64,000 nt of DNA from Escherichia coli (GTDB taxonomy: Bacteria; Pseudomonadota; Gammaproteobacteria; Enterobacterales; Enterobacteriaceae): the NCBI RefSeq assembly GCF_024223415.1, contig NZ_CP100500.1; one strand, written 5' to 3'. Each line of letters starts with the position of its first letter. Position 1 is the stretch's first letter. The position numbers and the translations under genes are program-made. The notes beneath the pieces are model-generated. The model was not told where the DNA came from. It was given only the letters and a program-made list of their open reading frames with translations, and did no database searches. This document shows, piece after piece, positions 2,833 to 60,332 of this stretch.

Positions 2833-2908
2833 GTCGGATGCGGCGCGAACGCCTTATCCGAACTACGCGAAGTTAATCCATAGAATTCGTAGGCCGGATA
2901 AGACGTGG
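2833..2908. repeat. BIME: one complete REP/PU plus the left half of a second PU that is interrupted by the IS
   Basis: gtcggatgcggcgcgaacgccttatccgaactacg (complete PU) then cgtaggccggataagacg (half PU) directly abutting the IS. Confidence 0.75.
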
Positions 2909-3435
2909 CAATGAACTGCACCCCAAATGTTGGACATAATCTGACATCTGAAGGTGCAGTTTATGAAACATTCATTTGAAGTAAAACTTGCCGCTGTAAA
3001 TCATTACCTGGCCGGTCATGCAGGCATCATTTCTACGGCAAAACTCTTTCAACTTTCTCACACCAGCCTCTCACACTGGATTAATCTTTTTCTTCTTCAC
3101 GGTCCTCAGGCACTGGATTGCAGACACAAGCGTAGCTATTCTCCTGAAGATAAACTTTGCGTGGTTCTTTATGCTCTCGGGCATTCTGAGTCTCTACCCC
3201 GGGTAGCTGCCCGGTTTAACATTCCCAGCCACAACATGGTTAAAAACTGGATAAAAGGCTACCGCAAATCTGGTAATGAGGCCTTTATCAGGCGCAGGAA
3301 GGAGAAAAGCATGACCCGTTCTGATGATACCCATGAAAACGAGGCAAACATGACGCCGGAAGAGATGAAGAATGAGCTGCGTTATCTTCGCGCAGAAAAT
3401 GCATATCTGAAAGCCATGCAGGAGCATCTCCTGGA

Positions 3436-3442
3436 AAAAAAG
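3436..3442 (+). other. programmed -1 ribosomal frameshift heptamer A AAA AAG
   Basis: A7G run in the orfA zero frame where the orfB reading frame opens; canonical IS3-family frameshift motif. Confidence 0.7.
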
Positions 3443-4343
<901 letters not shown>

Positions 4344-4391
4344 GCAAGCGTCGCATCCGGCAATGTGCTTCAACTAGCGATGGCGCACATC

Positions 4392-24650: not shown

Positions 24651-24706
<56 letters not shown>

Positions 24707-30068: not shown

Positions 30069-30138
30069 AGCCGGGTAGGCCTGATAAGACCGTATCAGGC
30101 ATCATGGCCGGATGCGGCGTGAACGCCTTATCCGGCCA
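30069..30138. repeat. BIME with two REP/PU elements
   Basis: taggcctgataagac... and gccggatgcggcgtgaacgccttatccggcc. Confidence 0.75.
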
Positions 30139-40329: not shown

Positions 40330-41373
40330 ATGCGCTATCGCATTTTCCTTCTCTTTTTTTTCGCTTTGTTGCCGACGTCTTTGGTGTGGGCGGCACCAGC
40401 GCAACGGGCGTTTTCCGACTGGCAGGTCACCTGTAATAACCAAAACTTCTGCGTGGCGCGTAATACGGGCGATCATAATGGACTGGTGATGACCCTGAGC
40501 CGCAGCGCCGGGGCGCATACCGATGCCGTTTTACGTATTGAGCGCGGCGGGTTGAAGTCGCCGGATGCGTCTGAAGGGGAAATTGCGCCACGGCTGCTGT
40601 TAGATGGCGAGCCGTTGGCGTTAAGTGGTGACAAGTGGCGGATTTCACCATGGTTATTAGTAACCGATGATACGGCAACCATCACCGCGTTTTTGCAGAT
40701 GATTCAGGAAGGGAAGGCGATCACCTTACGCGACGGCAATCAGACCATTTCTCTGAGTGGCTTAAAAGCGGCGTTGTTGTTTATTGATGCTCAGCAAAAG
40801 CGCGTTGGCAGTGAAACCGCGTGGATCAAGAAAGGGGACGAACCGCCGCTCAGCGTACCGCCCGCGCCTGCGCTGAAAGAGGTCGTGGTGGTTAACCCAA
40901 CGCCGACGCCACTCTCACTCGAAGAACGCAACGATTTGCTGGATTATGGAAACTGGCGGATGAATGGTCTGCGCTGCTCGCTTGATCCATTGCGTCGTGA
41001 GGTGAATGTCACTGCGCTGACTGATGATAAAGCGCTGATGATGATTAGCTGTGAGGCAGGGGCCTATAACACCATTGATTTGGCATGGATTGTGTCGCGT
41101 AAAAAGCCACTAGCCTCGCGTCCGGTTCGGTTGCGTTTGCCGTTCAACAACGGGCAGGAGACAAATGAACTGGAACTGATGAACGCAACATTTGATGAGA
41201 AATCGCGTGAACTGGTGACCTTAGCGAAAGGGCGCGGATTAAGCGATTGTGGCATTCAGGCGCGCTGGCGCTTTGACGGTCAGCGTTTTCGCCTGGTGCG
41301 TTACGCCGCAGAACCCACCTGCGATAACTGGCATGGGCCAGACGCCTGGCCCACGTTGTGGATCACCCGTTAA
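40330..41373 (+). CDS. ypfG: DUF1176 periplasmic protein
   Basis: 347-aa ORF with signal peptide. Confidence 0.75.
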   Translation: MRYRIFLLFFFALLPTSLVWAAPAQRAFSDWQVTCNNQNFCVARNTGDHNGLVMTLSRSAGAHTDAVLRIERGGLKSPDASEGEIAPRLLLDGEPLALSGDKWRISPWLLVTDDTATITAFLQMIQEGKAITLRDGNQTISLSGLKAALLFIDAQQKRVGSETAWIKKGDEPPLSVPPAPALKEVVVVNPTPTPLSLEERNDLLDYGNWRMNGLRCSLDPLRREVNVTALTDDKALMMISCEAGAYNTIDLAWIVSRKKPLASRPVRLRLPFNNGQETNELELMNATFDEKSRELVTLAKGRGLSDCGIQARWRFDGQRFRLVRYAAEPTCDNWHGPDAWPTLWITR

Positions 41374-41390
41374 ACAAAATGGCGGGACAT

Positions 41391-41460
41391 GTAGGCCGGG
41401 TAAGACGCTGTAGGCCGGATAAGACGCGTCAGCGTCGCATCCGGCAATCAGCATCCGGCG
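41391..41460. repeat. BIME including an intact PU of the same architecture as the two IS targets
   Basis: gtaggccggataagacgcg-tcag-cgtcgcatccggca at 41411..41447. Confidence 0.75.
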
Positions 41461-41467
41461 ATCACCA

Positions 41468-54781: not shown

Positions 54782-54800
54782 ATGCCGGATGCGACGCATG

Positions 54801-56233
<1,433 letters not shown>

Positions 56234-56236
56234 ATG

Positions 56237-56300
56237 TCGCGTCTTATCCGGCCTACGGGATTGCACATGTAGAGCGGATAAAGCGTTCACGCCGCATCCG
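56237..56300. repeat. BIME: right half of the interrupted PU plus a second complete REP/PU
   Basis: tcgcgtcttatccggcctacg then gcggataaagcgttcacgccgcatccgc. Confidence 0.7.
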
Positions 56301-56333
56301 CTAATAAATAACAACTAACAGGGAGTAAAGGCG

Positions 56334-57559
56334 ATGGGAATTAACGAAATCATCATGTACATCATGATGTTCTTTATGCTGATAGCTGCCGTAGACAGGA
56401 TCCTGTCGCAGTTCGGCGGTTCTGCTCGTTTCCTCGGTAAGTTCGGTAAAAGTATCGAAGGATCAGGCGGTCAGTTCGAAGAAGGCTTTATGGCAATGGG
56501 CGCTCTGGGTCTGGCGATGGTCGGTATGACCGCGCTGGCACCGGTACTGGCTCACGTACTCGGGCCGGTAATTATCCCGGTTTACGAAATGCTCGGCGCA
56601 AACCCGTCAATGTTCGCCGGAACGCTGCTGGCGTGCGATATGGGCGGCTTCTTCCTCGCCAAAGAGCTGGCGGGCGGCGACGTAGCCGCGTGGCTATACT
56701 CTGGGTTAATTCTCGGGTCGATGATGGGGCCAACGATTGTGTTTTCCATTCCGGTGGCGCTCGGCATTATCGAACCTTCTGACCGTCGTTATCTGGCGCT
56801 CGGCGTGCTGGCGGGCATTGTGACCATTCCGATTGGTTGTATCGCTGGTGGTCTGGTAGCTATGTACTCCGGTGTGCAGATCAACGGCCAGCCGGTGGAA
56901 TTCACTTTCGCCCTGATCCTGATGAACATGATCCCGGTGATCATTGTTGCGATTCTGGTGGCGCTGGGGCTGAAATTCATCCCGGAAAAAATGATCAACG
57001 GCTTCCAGATCTTCGCCAAATTCCTCGTTGCATTGATCACCCTCGGTCTTGCCGCTGCGGTAGTGAAATTCCTGCTTGGCTGGGAACTGATCCCCGGTCT
57101 GGATCCTATCTTTATGGCCCTGGCGATAAACCCGGTGAGGTGATGCGCGCCATTGAAGTTATCGGTTCTATCTCCTGCGTTCTGTTAGGGGCGTATCCGA
57201 TGGTGCTGCTGCTGACCCGCTGGTTTGAAAAACCGCTGATGAGCGTCGGTAAAGTGCTGAATATGAACAACATCGCGGCAGCCGGCATGGTGGCAACGCT
57301 TGCCAACAACATCCCGATGTTCGGCATGATGAAGCAGATGGATACCCGCGGCAAAGTCATCAACTGCGCCTTCGCCGTTTCTGCTGCTTTCGCCCTGGGC
57401 GACCACTTAGGCTTCGCCGCTGCCAACATGAATGCCATGATCTTCCCGATGATTGTCGGCAAGTTGATCGGCGGCGTAACGGCGATTGGCGTGGCGATGA
57501 TGCTGGTGCCAAAAGACGACGCGGCCGCAGCTAAAACCGAAGCGGAGGCACAATCGTGA
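56334..57559 (+). pseudogene. eutH: ethanolamine permease gene with an apparent 1-nt deletion frameshift
   Basis: EutH-like membrane protein is split into a 269-aa ORF (56334..57143) and an overlapping +1-frame ORF ending at 57559; total span is 1226 nt, one short of the 1227 nt needed for the 408 aa plus stop that I recall for EutH; frames switch between about 57090 and 57143. Confidence 0.6.
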
Positions 57560-58959
57560 ACACTCGCCAGCTACTGAGCGTCGGTATCGATATCGGCACC
57601 ACCACCACTCAGGTGATTTTCTCCCACCTGGAACTGGTTAACCGTGCGGCGGTGTCGCAGGTGCCGCGCTACGAATTCATCAAACGCGAAATTAGCTGGC
57701 AAAGCCCGGTGTTCTTTACCCCTGTCGATAAACAGGGTGGTTTAAAAGAAGCGGAACTGAAATCGCTGATTTTAGAGCAATATCAGGCTGCGGGCATTGC
57801 GCCGGAAAGCGTTGATTCTGGTGCCATCATCATCACCGGTGAAAGCGCGAAAACCCGCAATGCTCGCCCGGCGGTGATGGCGCTCTCTCAGTCGCTGGGC
57901 GATTTTGTCGTCGCCAGCGCCGGGCCGCACCTCGAATCCGTGATCGCCGGTCACGGAGCCGGGGCACAAACCCTTTCTGAACAACGGCTGTGTCGGGTAC
58001 TGAATATCGACATTGGCGGTGGCACCGCGAACTACGCCCTGTTCGATGCCGGAAAAATCAGCGGCACTGCCTGCCTCAACGTCGGTGGTCGCCTGCTGGA
58101 AACCGACAGCCAGGGGCGCGTGGTTTACGCTCATAAACCGGGGCAGATGATTGTGGATGAGTGCTTCGGCGCAGGCACCGACGCCCGTTCGCTGACCGGC
58201 GCGCAGCTGGTGCAGGTTACCCGGCGGATGGCAGAGCTGATTGTCGAAGTGATTGACGGAACGCTCTCGCCGCTCGCGCAGGCATTAATGCAAACCGGTT
58301 TGCTCCCCGCAGGTGTTACGCCCGAAATCATTACGCTTTCTGGCGGCGTGGGCGAATGTTATCGCCACCAGCCCGCCGACCCGTTCTGTTTTGCCGATAT
58401 TGGCCCACTTCTGGCAACGGCGCTGCATGACCATCCGCGCCTGCGTGAGATGAATGTGCAGTTTCCGGCGCAAACCGTACGCGCCACGGTGATTGGCGCG
58501 GGGGCACATACCCTTTCGCTCTCTGGCAGCACAATCTGGCTGGAGGGCGTACAACTGCCGCTGCGCAATTTGCCGGTGGCGATCCCGATTGATGAAACGG
58601 ATCTGGTGGGTGCCTGGCAACAGGCGCTGATTCAGCTGGATCTTGATCCCAAAACTGACGCGTACGTGCTGGCGCTTCCCGCCTCGCTGCCTGTGCGTTA
58701 CGCCGCGGTACTGACGGTCATCAACGCGTTGGTCGATTTCGTCGCGCGTTTTCCGAATCCGCATCCCCTGCTGGTGGTGGCCGGGCAGGACTTTGGTAAA
58801 GCTCTGGGCATGTTGTTGCGCCCACAGCTACAACAACTCCCGTTGGCAGTCATTGACGAAGTGATTGTCCGCGCGGGGGACTATATCGACATTGGTACGC
58901 CTCTTTTTGGCGGATCGGTTGTGCCGGTGACGGTGAAATCACTCGCATTTCCTTCCTGA
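57556..58959 (+). CDS. eutA: ethanolamine ammonia-lyase reactivase
   Basis: 467-aa ORF MNTRQLLSVGIDIGTTTTQV... Confidence 0.9.
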   Translation: MNTRQLLSVGIDIGTTTTQVIFSHLELVNRAAVSQVPRYEFIKREISWQSPVFFTPVDKQGGLKEAELKSLILEQYQAAGIAPESVDSGAIIITGESAKTRNARPAVMALSQSLGDFVVASAGPHLESVIAGHGAGAQTLSEQRLCRVLNIDIGGGTANYALFDAGKISGTACLNVGGRLLETDSQGRVVYAHKPGQMIVDECFGAGTDARSLTGAQLVQVTRRMAELIVEVIDGTLSPLAQALMQTGLLPAGVTPEIITLSGGVGECYRHQPADPFCFADIGPLLATALHDHPRLREMNVQFPAQTVRATVIGAGAHTLSLSGSTIWLEGVQLPLRNLPVAIPIDETDLVGAWQQALIQLDLDPKTDAYVLALPASLPVRYAAVLTVINALVDFVARFPNPHPLLVVAGQDFGKALGMLLRPQLQQLPLAVIDEVIVRAGDYIDIGTPLFGGSVVPVTVKSLAFPS

Positions 58960-58970
58960 GGGAACGACTT

Positions 58971-60332
58971 ATGAAACTAAAGACCACATTGTTCGGCAAT
59001 GTATATCAGTTTAAGGATGTAAAAGAGGTGCTGGCTAAAGCCAACGAACTGCGTTCGGGGGATGTGCTGGCAGGCGTTGCAGCGGCAAGTTCACAGGAGC
59101 GCGTGGCGGCAAAGCAGGTGTTGTCGGAAATGACCGTAGCGGACATCCGCAATAATCCGGTGATTGCCTATGAAGATGACTGCGTGACGCGGCTGATTCA
59201 GGACGATGTTAACGAAACGGCCTACAACCAGATTAAAAACTGGAGCATCAGCGAACTGCGTGAGTATGTGCTGAGCGATGAAACCAGCGTGGACGACATT
59301 GCCTTTACCCGCAAAGGGCTGACCTCGGAAGTGGTCGCGGCGGTAGCGAAGATTTGCTCCAACGCGGACCTGATCTACGGCGCGAAGAAAATGCCGGTAA
59401 TCAAAAAGGCCAATACCACCATCGGTATTCCGGGCACCTTCAGCGCCCGTTTGCAGCCAAATGACACTCGTGACGACGTGCAAAGTATCGCCGCGCAAAT
59501 CTACGAAGGGCTTTCCTTCGGGGTGGGCGATGCGGTGATCGGCGTTAACCCGGTGACTGACGACGTGGAAAACTTAAGCCGCGTGCTGGATACCATTTAT
59601 GGCGTGATCGACAAATTCAACATCCCAACTCAGGGCTGCGTACTGGCGCACGTCACCACCCAGATCGAAGCGATTCGTCGCGGCGCGCCTGGCGGACTGA
59701 TTTTCCAGAGTATCTGTGGCAGCGAAAAAGGGCTGAAAGAGTTTGGCGTGGAACTGGCGATGCTCGACGAAGCGCGCGCAGTGGGCGCAGAGTTCAACCG
59801 TATCGCCGGGGAAAACTGCCTCTACTTCGAAACCGGACAAGGCTCTGCGCTATCCGCTGGCGCTAACTTCGGCGCTGACCAGGTGACGATGGAAGCACGT
59901 AACTATGGGCTGGCGCGTCATTACGATCCGTTTATCGTCAACACCGTGGTCGGTTTTATTGGGCCGGAGTATCTCTACAACGACCGCCAGATTATCCGTG
60001 CTGGCTTAGAAGATCACTTTATGGGCAAGCTGAGCGGCATCTCTATGGGCTGTGACTGCTGTTACACCAACCACGCTGACGCTGACCAGAACCTCAACGA
60101 AAACCTGATGATCCTGCTCGCCACCGCAGGCTGCAACTACATCATGGGGATGCCGTTGGGTGATGACATCATGCTCAACTACCAGACCACCGCATTCCAC
60201 GATACCGCCACTGTGCGTCAGTTACTCAACCTGCGCCCGTCACCGGAGTTTGAACGCTGGCTGGAAAGCATGGGCATTATGGCAAACGGTCGCCTGACCA
60301 AACGGGCGGGCGATCCGTCACTGTTCTTCTGA
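58971..60332 (+). CDS. eutB: ethanolamine ammonia-lyase large subunit
   Basis: 453-aa ORF. Confidence 0.9.
   Translation: MKLKTTLFGNVYQFKDVKEVLAKANELRSGDVLAGVAAASSQERVAAKQVLSEMTVADIRNNPVIAYEDDCVTRLIQDDVNETAYNQIKNWSISELREYVLSDETSVDDIAFTRKGLTSEVVAAVAKICSNADLIYGAKKMPVIKKANTTIGIPGTFSARLQPNDTRDDVQSIAAQIYEGLSFGVGDAVIGVNPVTDDVENLSRVLDTIYGVIDKFNIPTQGCVLAHVTTQIEAIRRGAPGGLIFQSICGSEKGLKEFGVELAMLDEARAVGAEFNRIAGENCLYFETGQGSALSAGANFGADQVTMEARNYGLARHYDPFIVNTVVGFIGPEYLYNDRQIIRAGLEDHFMGKLSGISMGCDCCYTNHADADQNLNENLMILLATAGCNYIMGMPLGDDIMLNYQTTAFHDTATVRQLLNLRPSPEFERWLESMGIMANGRLTKRAGDPSLFF

What the first reader, a model, noticed from the sequence alone, without database searches (positions are those of the whole stretch)
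41411..41447. Intact PUs of the same architecture as the IS targets elsewhere in the window
The PU at 41411..41447 (rc gccggatgcgacgc-TGAC-gcgtcttatccggcctac) has the same stem sequence as the two occupied targets, and further PUs occur at about 24651..24706 and 30069..30138. If the element is PU-specific these are ready-made landing sites, and the occupied/empty pattern gives an internal control for target specificity.
Basis: inference. Interest (0 to 1): 0.25.

Follow-up and report, generated by a model that had tools for sequence, protein, structure and literature searches.

The report
Empty REP hairpins: proven IS1397 landing sites

Summary
The window is an E. coli chromosome segment collinear with K-12 2.555-2.621 Mb. 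At 41410-41445 (minus strand), between the convergent genes ypfG and tktB, lies a complete 36-nt Z-type palindromic unit (PU/REP). It is conserved in K-12.

The two insertion sequences (2912-4343 and 54802-56233) are identical 1432-bp copies of IS1397, an IS3-family element. Each splits a Z-type PU in its loop.

A predicted junction, made of the flank up to the PU loop plus an IS end, matches 400 of 400 nt in strain GPEC1446. The opposite orientation matches 400 of 400 nt in NCTC10444. The duplicated target is GTCA, the 4-nt loop. The Y-type PU at 30107-30136 is occupied in 11 of 5,426 genomes. The degenerate PU at 24659-24692 is occupied in none.

Of 80 distinct IS1397 junction flanks from metagenomes, 67 (84%) are PU halves, covering Y and Z types and both orientations equally.

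Two corrections. Only the outer 13 bp of each arm match the occupied targets; the centres differ. The empty/occupied pattern reflects sparse occupancy, not discrimination.

PU-loop specificity of IS1397 was published in 1997-2003, so this is already known. Side lead: distant relatives with the same 25-nt ends also sit in hairpin loops.

The parts
41410..41445 (-). Intact Z-type palindromic unit (PU/REP), 36 nt: GCCGGATGCGACGC TGAC GCGTCTTATCCGGC CTAC. It lies between the convergent genes ypfG and tktB. This is the finding itself.
   Evidence: It is conserved in K-12. It is occupied by IS1397 in GPEC1446, FDAARGOS_943/944 and NCTC10444, with target duplication GTCA.
41391..41409 (-). Half PU (tail arm only, GTAGGCCGGGTAAGACGCT). 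Together with 41451-41459 it forms an outer stem around the full PU.
   Evidence: The whole spacer folds as a nested hairpin, -42.6 kcal/mol, z = -5.1.
41451..41459 (-). Repeated head-arm fragment (GCATCCGGC) that pairs with the half PU at 41391-41409.
24659..24692 (-). Y-type PU with degenerate outer stem (GTCGGATGCGGCG TGAA CGCCTTATCCGAAC TAC), between bamC and purC. It is empty in every genome examined.
   Evidence: It has no IS1397 in any of 5,426 genomes.
30107..30136 (+). Y-type PU (GCCGGATGCGGCG TGAA CGCCTTATCCGGC), between ypfH and ypfN/dapE. It is empty here and occupied in other strains.
   Evidence: It is occupied in 11 of 5,426 genomes. Both junctions were read in SK1402 (target duplication TAAC) and in ST2747 (opposite orientation, AAC).
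30075..30100 (-). Short atypical PU-like palindrome (GTAGGCCTGATAAGACCGTATCAGGC).
2833..2866 (+). Y-type PU with degenerate stem. It is the partner of the occupied Z PU in the hda-yfgD BIME.
2889..2911 (-). Tail half plus loop of the Z-type PU split by IS copy 1. It ends with one copy of the target duplication GCAA.
   Evidence: K-12 shows the empty site GTAGGCCGGATAAGACGTGGCAAGCGTCGCATCCGGC.
2912..4343 (+). IS1397 copy 1, 1432 bp. Its ends are TGAACTGCACCCC... and ...GGGGTTCAGTTCA. orfA runs 2963-3484, the slippery site AAAAAAAG starts at 3435, and the orfB frame runs to 4311.
4344..4361 (-). Head half of the Z-type PU split by IS copy 1. It starts with the second copy of GCAA.
54784..54801 (+). 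Head half of the Z-type PU split by IS copy 2 (GCCGGATGCGACGCATGC), just after eutG.
54802..56233 (-). IS1397 copy 2, 1432 bp, identical to copy 1.
56234..56256 (+). Loop plus tail half of the Z-type PU split by IS copy 2 (ATGTCGCGTCTTATCCGGCCTAC). The target duplication is CAT (3 bp), or a 4-bp duplication with one mismatch.
56269..56302 (-). Y-type PU, partner of the occupied Z PU in the eutG-eutH BIME.

Best explanation
The flagged sequence is a normal E. coli palindromic unit (PU, also called REP). It is a Z-type PU in the spacer between the convergent genes ypfG and tktB, and it is inherited at this position (K-12 has it too).

The mobile element elsewhere in the window is IS1397, a 1432-bp IS3-family insertion sequence. 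Its transposase is made from orfA and orfB by a -1 frameshift. IS1397 inserts preferentially into the loop of PUs and duplicates 3-4 bp at or next to the centre of the hairpin.

The intact PUs are therefore genuine potential targets. They are unoccupied only because the element is present in few copies relative to the hundreds of PUs in a genome.

What is shown here:
- the identity of the element;
- the loop position and the 3-4-bp duplications;
- use of both Y and Z PUs in both orientations;
- natural insertions into this exact PU and into the PU at 30107.

What is inferred:
- The transposase complex itself recognises the PU. This was published for IS1397/ISKpn1 and was not tested here.
- The recognition is of a dyad-symmetric or hairpin-like target centred on the loop. 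I infer this from the absence of orientation bias and from relatives that sit in unrelated hairpins.
For: Identity of the element.
- 98-99.7% DNA identity to elements that RefSeq annotates as 'IS3-like element IS1397 family transposase, programmed frameshift'. 1,706 of 5,426 complete genomes hold a near-full copy.
- Pfam HTH_28 on orfA; rve, rve_2 and HTH_21 on orfB.
- An AAAAAAAG slippery site sits in the orfA/orfB overlap, and the two copies are 1432 of 1432 identical.

Loop insertion.
- K-12 has the uninterrupted PU at hda-yfgD, and the window has it split with the duplication GCAA.
- 16 complete copies give duplications of mostly 3-4 bp inside a predicted hairpin loop.

This PU is a target.
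- The chimeric query 'window 41132-41431 + IS left end' matches 400 of 400 nt in GPEC1446 and about 98% in FDAARGOS_943 and FDAARGOS_944.
- The query with the right end matches 400 of 400 nt in NCTC10444.
- Both junctions read ...GACGC GTCA |IS| GTCA GCGTC....

The PU at 30107 is occupied in 11 genomes, in both orientations.

Generality.
- 67 of 80 distinct metagenome junction flanks carry a PU half within 2 mismatches: Y 38, Z 29, with heads, tails and both IS ends in equal proportions.
- The Y/Z ratio among occupied PUs equals that among 71 intact PUs in the same contigs (Fisher p = 0.61).
- Flanks ending ...GACGCGTCA| and ...GACGCTGAC| show TGAC-loop PUs used at other loci.

Literature. [quoted passage not shown]
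Against: - The preference is not absolute. About 5 of 80 flanks (L125, L140, L147, L169, L209) show no PU, and 6-8 more are only PU-like.
- The PU at 24659 is never occupied in 5,426 genomes, so not every PU is equally good.
- The primary IS1397 papers were not available in the library. What I state about them beyond the citing reviews is from memory.
- I could not enumerate every IS1397 copy in the complete genomes. I could only test named sites.
Confidence: 0.95

Rival explanations
1. The intact PU at 41410 is empty because IS1397 discriminates against its subtype. It has a 36-nt, TGAC-loop, Z1-like centre, whereas the 37-nt Z2-like centres are the ones occupied. On this reading the occupied/empty pattern in the window reports target specificity.
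For: The centres of the three Z PUs do differ. Both occupied PUs in the window are the 37-nt form.
Against: - The same PU is occupied in 4 other genomes.
- TGAC-loop PUs at other loci are occupied (L152, L184, L185, L205).
- Y, Z1-like and Z2-like centres all occur among the flanks.
- The Y/Z usage equals the background.
Confidence: 0.02
2. The two IS copies and their identical 19-nt PU flanks were produced by duplication or recombination of an 'IS plus flank' block, not by two independent PU-targeted insertions. The apparent PU association in the window would then be a single event.
For: - The inverted repeat extends 19-24 nt beyond the IS on both sides (arms 2888-4362 and 54783-56257).
- Some metagenome copies do have chimeric flanks without a target duplication (L145/L186, L206/L210).
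Against: - K-12 has an uninterrupted PU at both loci, so the flanks are resident PU halves.
- The loop residues next to the IS differ between the two sites (GCAA versus CAT/ATG).
- Gene order across and between the copies is collinear with K-12, so there was no inversion.
Confidence: 0.02
3. Target choice is guided mainly by DNA shape, not by the PU sequence as such. The shape would be an extruded hairpin or cruciform, or any short GC-rich dyad with a 4-7-nt centre. PUs are hit simply because they are the most abundant strong hairpins outside genes in E. coli.
For: - There is no orientation bias, and Y and Z types are used equally.
- The duplication sits at the hairpin centre.
- One non-PU insertion, L209, sits in an unrelated hairpin.
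- 13 of 14 complete relatives (OrfB 40-53% identical, same 25-nt ends) from Neisseria, Bacilli MAGs, a Labilibaculum MAG and other distant taxa sit in loops of terminator-like hairpins or inverted uptake-sequence pairs. By the same criterion only 24% of random positions qualify.
Against: - In E. coli 84% of flanks are PUs, although intrinsic terminators are also abundant hairpins.
- A degenerate PU that still folds (24659, -8.4 kcal/mol) is never used.
- Published work assigns different PU sequence preferences to the IS1397 and ISKpn1 transposases (title of Wilde 2003, cited).
- The Bacteroides relatives have recurrent flanks that do not look like hairpins.
Confidence: 0.25

Closest known systems
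IS1397 (IS3 family) and its PU/BIME targets in E. coli (Bachellier 1997; Clement 1999; Wilde 2001, 2003)
   Same: - It is the same element: 1432 bp, TG...CA ends, orfA/orfB with a -1 frameshift, 3-4-bp duplication, insertion in the PU loop.
- RefSeq names the matching copies IS1397.
- Reviews held in the library state the REP specificity.
   Different: Nothing essential differs. This work adds that the specific ypfG-tktB and ypfH-ypfN PUs are natural targets in sequenced strains, and that Y and Z PUs and both orientations are used about equally in a metagenome sample.
ISKpn1 (IS3 family, Klebsiella pneumoniae PUs) and ISPsy8 (Pseudomonas syringae REPs)
   Same: They are IS3-family elements inserted inside species-specific REP hairpins (PMC1525189).
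   Different: They are different elements in different hosts with different REP consensus sequences. They are not present in this window.
IS621 / ISPpu9 / ISPpu10 (IS110 family) targeting REPs
   Same: They also use REP sequences as targets in E. coli and Pseudomonas.
   Different: - They use an unrelated DEDD recombinase, guided for IS621/ISPpu10 by a bridge RNA.
- IS621 inserts beside the palindrome at a fixed sequence rather than in the loop.
- They make no 3-4-bp duplication of the loop.
REP-associated tyrosine transposases (RAYT / TnpA-REP)
   Same: They act on the same PU/BIME sequences and recognise the GTAG/CTAC end (PMC3333891).
   Different: They are HUH single-strand enzymes thought to spread REPs themselves. 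No such gene is involved here.
Bacterial group IIC introns that home beside intrinsic terminator hairpins
   Same: They show the same logic of using an intergenic hairpin as a safe landing site. This resembles what the distant IS1397 relatives appear to do.
   Different: They are RNA-based retroelements that insert after the stem, not in the loop. This comparison rests on my own knowledge.

Membership tests
Palindromic unit / REP (component of BIMEs) | An imperfect palindrome of about 35-40 nt with an internal mismatch, able to form a stable hairpin. | tested here: met
   41406-41449 folds at -12.8 kcal/mol, z = -3.9, with an internal bulge in the stem.
Palindromic unit / REP (component of BIMEs) | A match to the E. 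coli PU consensus, including the asymmetric GTAG/CTAC tetranucleotide at one end. | tested here: met
   0 mismatches to both the head and the tail motif at 41410-41445.
Palindromic unit / REP (component of BIMEs) | Extragenic location, typically at the 3' ends of genes. | tested here: met
   It lies in the 94-nt spacer between the stop codons of the convergent genes ypfG and tktB.
Palindromic unit / REP (component of BIMEs) | Highly repeated in the genome. | tested here: met
   7 tail motifs in 64 kb against 0.06 expected. 75 distinct intact PUs were found in 827 kb of related contigs.
PU subtype (Y, Z1, Z2) and BIME-1 / BIME-2 context | Diagnostic bases (GCGGCG/AAGGCG for Y, GCGACG/AAGACG for Z), plus centre length and linker type for Z1 versus Z2. 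| tested here: inconclusive
   The Y versus Z assignment is clear. Calling 41410 'Z1-like' (36 nt) and the occupied ones 'Z2-like' (37 nt, like the K-12 eutG-eutH Z2-Y tandem) rests on my memory of the consensus sequences. The defining figures were not available.
IS1397 (IS3 family) | A 1432-bp element with imperfect terminal inverted repeats beginning TG and ending CA. | tested here: met
   2912-4343 and 54802-56233. The ends are TGAACTGCACCCCAAA and TTTGGGGTTCAGTTCA.
IS1397 (IS3 family) | Two overlapping reading frames (HTH OrfA, DDE/rve OrfB) joined by a programmed -1 frameshift. | tested here: met
   Pfam HTH_28 and rve/rve_2. AAAAAAAG lies in the overlap. RefSeq annotates a 'programmed frameshift' on identical copies.
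IS1397 (IS3 family) | Near-identity to the reference element. | tested here: met
   98-99.7% identity to copies annotated IS1397 in RefSeq. 1432 of 1432 identical to the annotated copies in GPEC1446 and NCTC10444. The ISfinder reference sequence itself was not available.
IS1397 (IS3 family) | A 3-4-bp target duplication and insertion in the PU loop. | tested here: met
IS1397 (IS3 family) | Transposition activity and a copy-out/paste-in mechanism through a circular intermediate. | not testable with these tools
   It is inferred from family membership. Identical copies at different PUs in sister strains imply recent activity.

The most novel reading that the evidence does not exclude
IS1397's PU tropism may be one local instance of a property shared by a phylum-spanning IS3 subgroup. 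Elements with the same 25-nt termini (TGAACTGMACCCCAAAWSYTGGACA) and 40-53% OrfB identity occur in Neisseria, Bacilli MAGs, Burkholderia/Paraburkholderia, a Labilibaculum MAG and others. In these, insertions lie in the loops of whatever strong intergenic hairpin the host offers: intrinsic terminators, or inverted DNA-uptake-sequence pairs. That would point to target capture guided by dyad symmetry or DNA structure, with host-specific sequence tuning layered on top. I could not establish whether this generalisation has already been published.
Probability: 0.4. Interest if true: 0.45.

Novelty: already known. Interest (0 to 1): 0.15.

Why it matters
The finding is a correct reading of well-known biology. 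REP/PU hairpins are the preferred landing pads of IS1397, so an empty PU is a potential insertion site.

Its practical value is modest.
- It explains why IS1397 rarely disrupts genes.
- It explains why the same intergenic hairpins are hit repeatedly and independently in different strains. These recurrent hits are a caveat for IS-based typing.
- It explains why inverted IS copies 50 kb apart are a latent substrate for inversion.

The only part with some research value is the side lead that distant relatives of the element also choose hairpin loops. That lead could be used to study how a DDE transposase reads a DNA hairpin.

Tried and rejected
1. Orientation rule. Both copies in the window have the IS left end next to the PU tail half, so I first assumed a fixed orientation of IS relative to PU. 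The metagenome flanks (both ends next to heads and tails equally) and the two opposite insertions in the 41410 PU rejected this.

2. Scan of GTDB species representatives with the 25-nt end pattern. It returned only one Escherichia locus (E. albertii, L016) and no E. coli, so it was useless for the E. coli question. It did produce the side lead.

3. Primary IS1397 papers (PMC94167, PMC169884, PMC95333, PMC135288). They are not held. Only citing papers could be read.

I replaced it with half-motif searches and my own regular expressions.

5. Inversion between the two inverted IS copies. Gene order is collinear with K-12 throughout, so this is rejected.

6. Literature searches for IS3-family elements that target terminators found nothing relevant. 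The novelty of the side lead remains undetermined.

7. The K-12 RefSeq record as served lists no REP features, so no curated REP names could be attached.

Full report
**1. What the window is**

ORF content and direct comparison show that the window is an E. coli chromosomal segment. It is collinear with K-12 MG1655 positions 2.555-2.621 Mb, in reverse orientation. The gene order is upp-uraA-hda | yfgD-bepA-yfgO-focB-hyf-bcp-gcvR-dapA-bamC-purC ... acrD-narQ-aegA-nudK-ypfG-tktB-talA-maeB-eutS..eutG | eutH-eutA-eutB..eutR. The bars mark two insertions that K-12 lacks.

**2. The observation**

- As single-stranded DNA it folds into a bulged hairpin of -12.8 kcal/mol, z = -3.9.
- It matches both halves of the E. 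coli palindromic-unit (PU/REP) consensus without mismatch.
- PU tails occur 7 times in the window against 0.06 expected by chance. PU heads occur 9 times against 0.71 expected.
- K-12 has the same PU in the same 94-nt spacer between the stop codons of ypfG and tktB.
- The spacer also holds a half PU at 41391-41409. This pairs with a repeated head fragment at 41451-41459, so the whole spacer forms a nested hairpin.

- 24659-24692 is a Y-type PU with degenerate outer stems.
- 30107-30136 is a clean Y-type PU.
- 30075-30100 is a short atypical palindrome.

**3. The element**

- A 1475-nt perfect-looking inverted repeat joins 2888-4362 and 54783-56257.
- Reading the junctions gives two 1432-bp elements, 2912-4343 (+) and 54802-56233 (-). 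Their ends are TGAACTGCACCCC... and ...GGGGTTCAGTTCA.
- The two copies are identical.
- orfA carries helix-turn-helix domains. orfB carries the rve integrase core. An AAAAAAAG slippery site lies in the overlap between them.
- A search of 5,426 complete E. coli genomes finds 98-99.7% identical copies annotated 'IS3-like element IS1397 family transposase, programmed frameshift'. 1,706 genomes hold a near-full copy.
- The element is therefore IS1397.

**4. The occupied targets**

- K-12 has the uninterrupted PU GTAGGCCGGATAAGACG-TGGCAAG-CGTCGCATCCGGC in the hda-yfgD spacer. In the window the IS sits in its loop, flanked by GCAA on both sides.
- In the eutG-eutH spacer the IS splits GCCGGATGCGACGC-ATG(T/C)C-GCGTCTTATCCGGCCTAC. 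The duplication is either the 3-bp CAT or a 4-bp duplication with one mismatch.
- K-12 has two Z2-Y PU pairs there, and the window has one.
The centres differ: a 36-nt PU with a 4-nt TGAC loop, against 37-nt PUs with 5-7-nt centres.
- Gene order is collinear with K-12 inside and outside the two inverted copies, so no inversion has occurred.

**5. Direct test of the inference**

From the two junctions I derived a rule: the duplicated bases lie immediately 5' of GCGTCGC. From this I predicted that an insertion in the 41410 PU would read ...GATAAGACGCGTCA|IS. I built 400-nt queries from 300 nt of window flank ending at 41431 plus 100 nt of either IS end.

- With the left end, the query matches 400 of 400 nt in strain GPEC1446 and about 98% in FDAARGOS_943 and FDAARGOS_944.
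- With the right end, it matches 400 of 400 nt in NCTC10444.
- Empty genomes cover only 75% of the query.
- The fetched loci show both junctions...GACGC GTCA |1432-bp IS| GTCA GCGTC..., in opposite orientations in the two strains. The duplication is the 4-nt loop itself.

The same test was run on the other sites.

| Site | Genomes occupied (of 5,426) | Source |
|---|---|---|
| PU 41410 (ypfG-tktB) | 4, both orientations | |
| PU 30107 (ypfH-ypfN) | 11, both orientations; SK1402 duplicates TAAC, ST2747 duplicates AAC | |
| PU 24659 (bamC-purC, degenerate) | 0 | |
| hda-yfgD (occupied in the window) | 2 others | |
| eutG-eutH (occupied in the window) | 5 others | |

Occupancy of any one PU is thus rare. 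Emptiness in one window says little about specificity.

**6. How general is the PU preference?**

An exact-pattern scan of public metagenome contigs with IS1397-specific termini gave 98 loci.

- Of 80 distinct junction flanks, 67 (84%) carry a PU half within 2 mismatches right at the junction.
- These comprise 22 Y heads, 16 Y tails, 18 Z heads and 11 Z tails, each split about evenly between the left and right IS ends. There is no orientation bias and no Y/Z bias.
- The Y/Z ratio of occupied PUs (38:29) equals that of 71 distinct intact PUs in the same contigs (37:34; Fisher p = 0.61).
- Flanks such as ...GACGCGTCA| and ...GACGCTGAC| show that TGAC-loop PUs are used at other loci too.
- Sixteen complete copies give duplications of mostly 3 or 4 bp located in the predicted loop.
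- Four copies lack a duplication. At least two pairs have flanks from different PUs, which is the signature of recombination between IS copies.
- About five flanks are clearly not PUs, and one of these (L209) is a different hairpin.

**7. Mechanism**

Shown:
- insertion at the hairpin centre with a 3-4-bp stagger;
- no orientation preference;
- indifference to the Y/Z diagnostic bases;
- sensitivity to stem quality is suggested by the never-occupied degenerate PU.

Inferred from family knowledge: IS3-family copy-out/paste-in transposition through a circular intermediate.

Published and cited by papers I could read: the transposases themselves account for the PU specificity of IS1397 and ISKpn1 (PMC1525189; PMC3184786).

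My reading is that the transposition complex recognises a dyad-symmetric target centred on the loop. Whether it reads sequence, an extruded hairpin, or both was not testable here.

**8. Comparison with what is known**

This is IS1397 in its documented habitat. The nearest analogues are:
- ISKpn1 and ISPsy8, which are IS3-family elements in other REP families;
- the IS110-family elements IS621, ISPpu9 and ISPpu10, which also use REPs but by a different chemistry and at a different position;
- RAYT/TnpA-REP enzymes, which act on REPs themselves.

All defining features of a PU and of IS1397 that can be tested in silico are met. Only the Z1/Z2 label is left open, because the defining consensus figures were not available.

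**9. Side lead**

The terminal 25 nt of IS1397 occur exactly in more than 120 places in species representatives from Neisseria, Bacteroides, Streptococcus, Burkholderia, Proteus, Bacilli MAGs and others.

- These elements encode OrfB proteins 40-53% identical to that of IS1397.
- Both ends could be found for 14 of them. In 13, the reconstructed empty site is a strong hairpin with the insertion point in the loop. Examples are A-run/stem/loop/stem/T-run terminators and, in Neisseria, inverted pairs of GGTCGTCTGAA uptake-like sequences.
- By the same criterion only 24% of random positions qualify.
- The Bacteroides copies instead share two recurrent flank classes that do not look like a hairpin.
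- I could not find this generalisation in the held literature, but I cannot exclude that it is documented elsewhere.

**10. Verdict**

- The novelty is nil, because PU-loop targeting by IS1397 has been known since 1997-2003.
- Interest is low. The side lead on relatives is the only part that might repay further work.

Noticed in passing
L003-L122 (GTDB species representatives): The terminal 25 nt of IS1397 are shared exactly by IS3-family elements in very distant bacteria (OrfB 40-53% identical). 13 of 14 complete copies sit in the loop of a strong hairpin, either an intrinsic-terminator-like structure or, in Neisseria, an inverted pair of GGTCGTCTGAA uptake-like sequences. This suggests hairpin-loop targeting across the whole subgroup.
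   Followed up: partly
L044-L062 (Bacteroides sp. OM05-12): The many copies of the related IS in this genome have outward flanks of only two recurrent kinds (…AGTGAAGGCACTTTTTT and …CTCAATTCTCAACTAAA), each found next to either IS end. This implies a repeated, apparently non-hairpin target sequence.
   Followed up: no
window 56334-57559 (eutH), near 57118: eutH has a 1-nt deletion in a C run relative to K-12 (GGCCCCTGG to GGCCCTGG), which shifts the frame after about 262 codons. It is either a pseudogene or a homopolymer sequencing error. It lies just downstream of the IS1397 copy in the eutG-eutH spacer.
   Followed up: partly
window 54782-56305 versus K-12 2568108-2568323: The eutG-eutH spacer holds two tandem Z2-Y PU pairs in K-12 but only one pair (with the IS in the Z unit) in the window. 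This is an ordinary BIME copy-number polymorphism.
   Followed up: partly
window 41374-41467: The ypfG-tktB spacer is a hairpin within a hairpin. A half PU (41391-41409) and a repeated head fragment (41451-41459) pair around the complete PU. The RNA fold is -42.6 kcal/mol, z = -5.1. The arrangement looks like a PU nested in, or duplicated around, another PU, and it is conserved in K-12.
   Followed up: partly
window 2912-4343, 54802-56233; L221, L222: The IS copies in the window, GPEC1446 and NCTC10444 are 1432 of 1432 identical. Within this closely related group of strains, three different PUs inside about 53 kb (hda-yfgD, ypfG-tktB, eutG-eutH) carry the IS in one strain or another. This suggests very recent activity and possibly local hopping.
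   Followed up: partly
L145, L186, L206, L210 (metagenome contigs): Some complete IS1397 copies have left and right flanks from different PUs and no target duplication. This is the footprint of homologous recombination (inversion or deletion) between IS copies. The two inverted copies in the window are a substrate for the same kind of event.
   Followed up: no
window 57556-60332: eutA is followed directly by eutB. The CPZ-55 cryptic prophage that separates them in K-12 is absent from this strain.
   Followed up: no
window 30075-30100: The short atypical PU contains ATCAGGCCTAC. From memory, this is the natural REP target core of the bridge-RNA recombinase IS621. No IS621 copy was seen in the window.
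   Followed up: no
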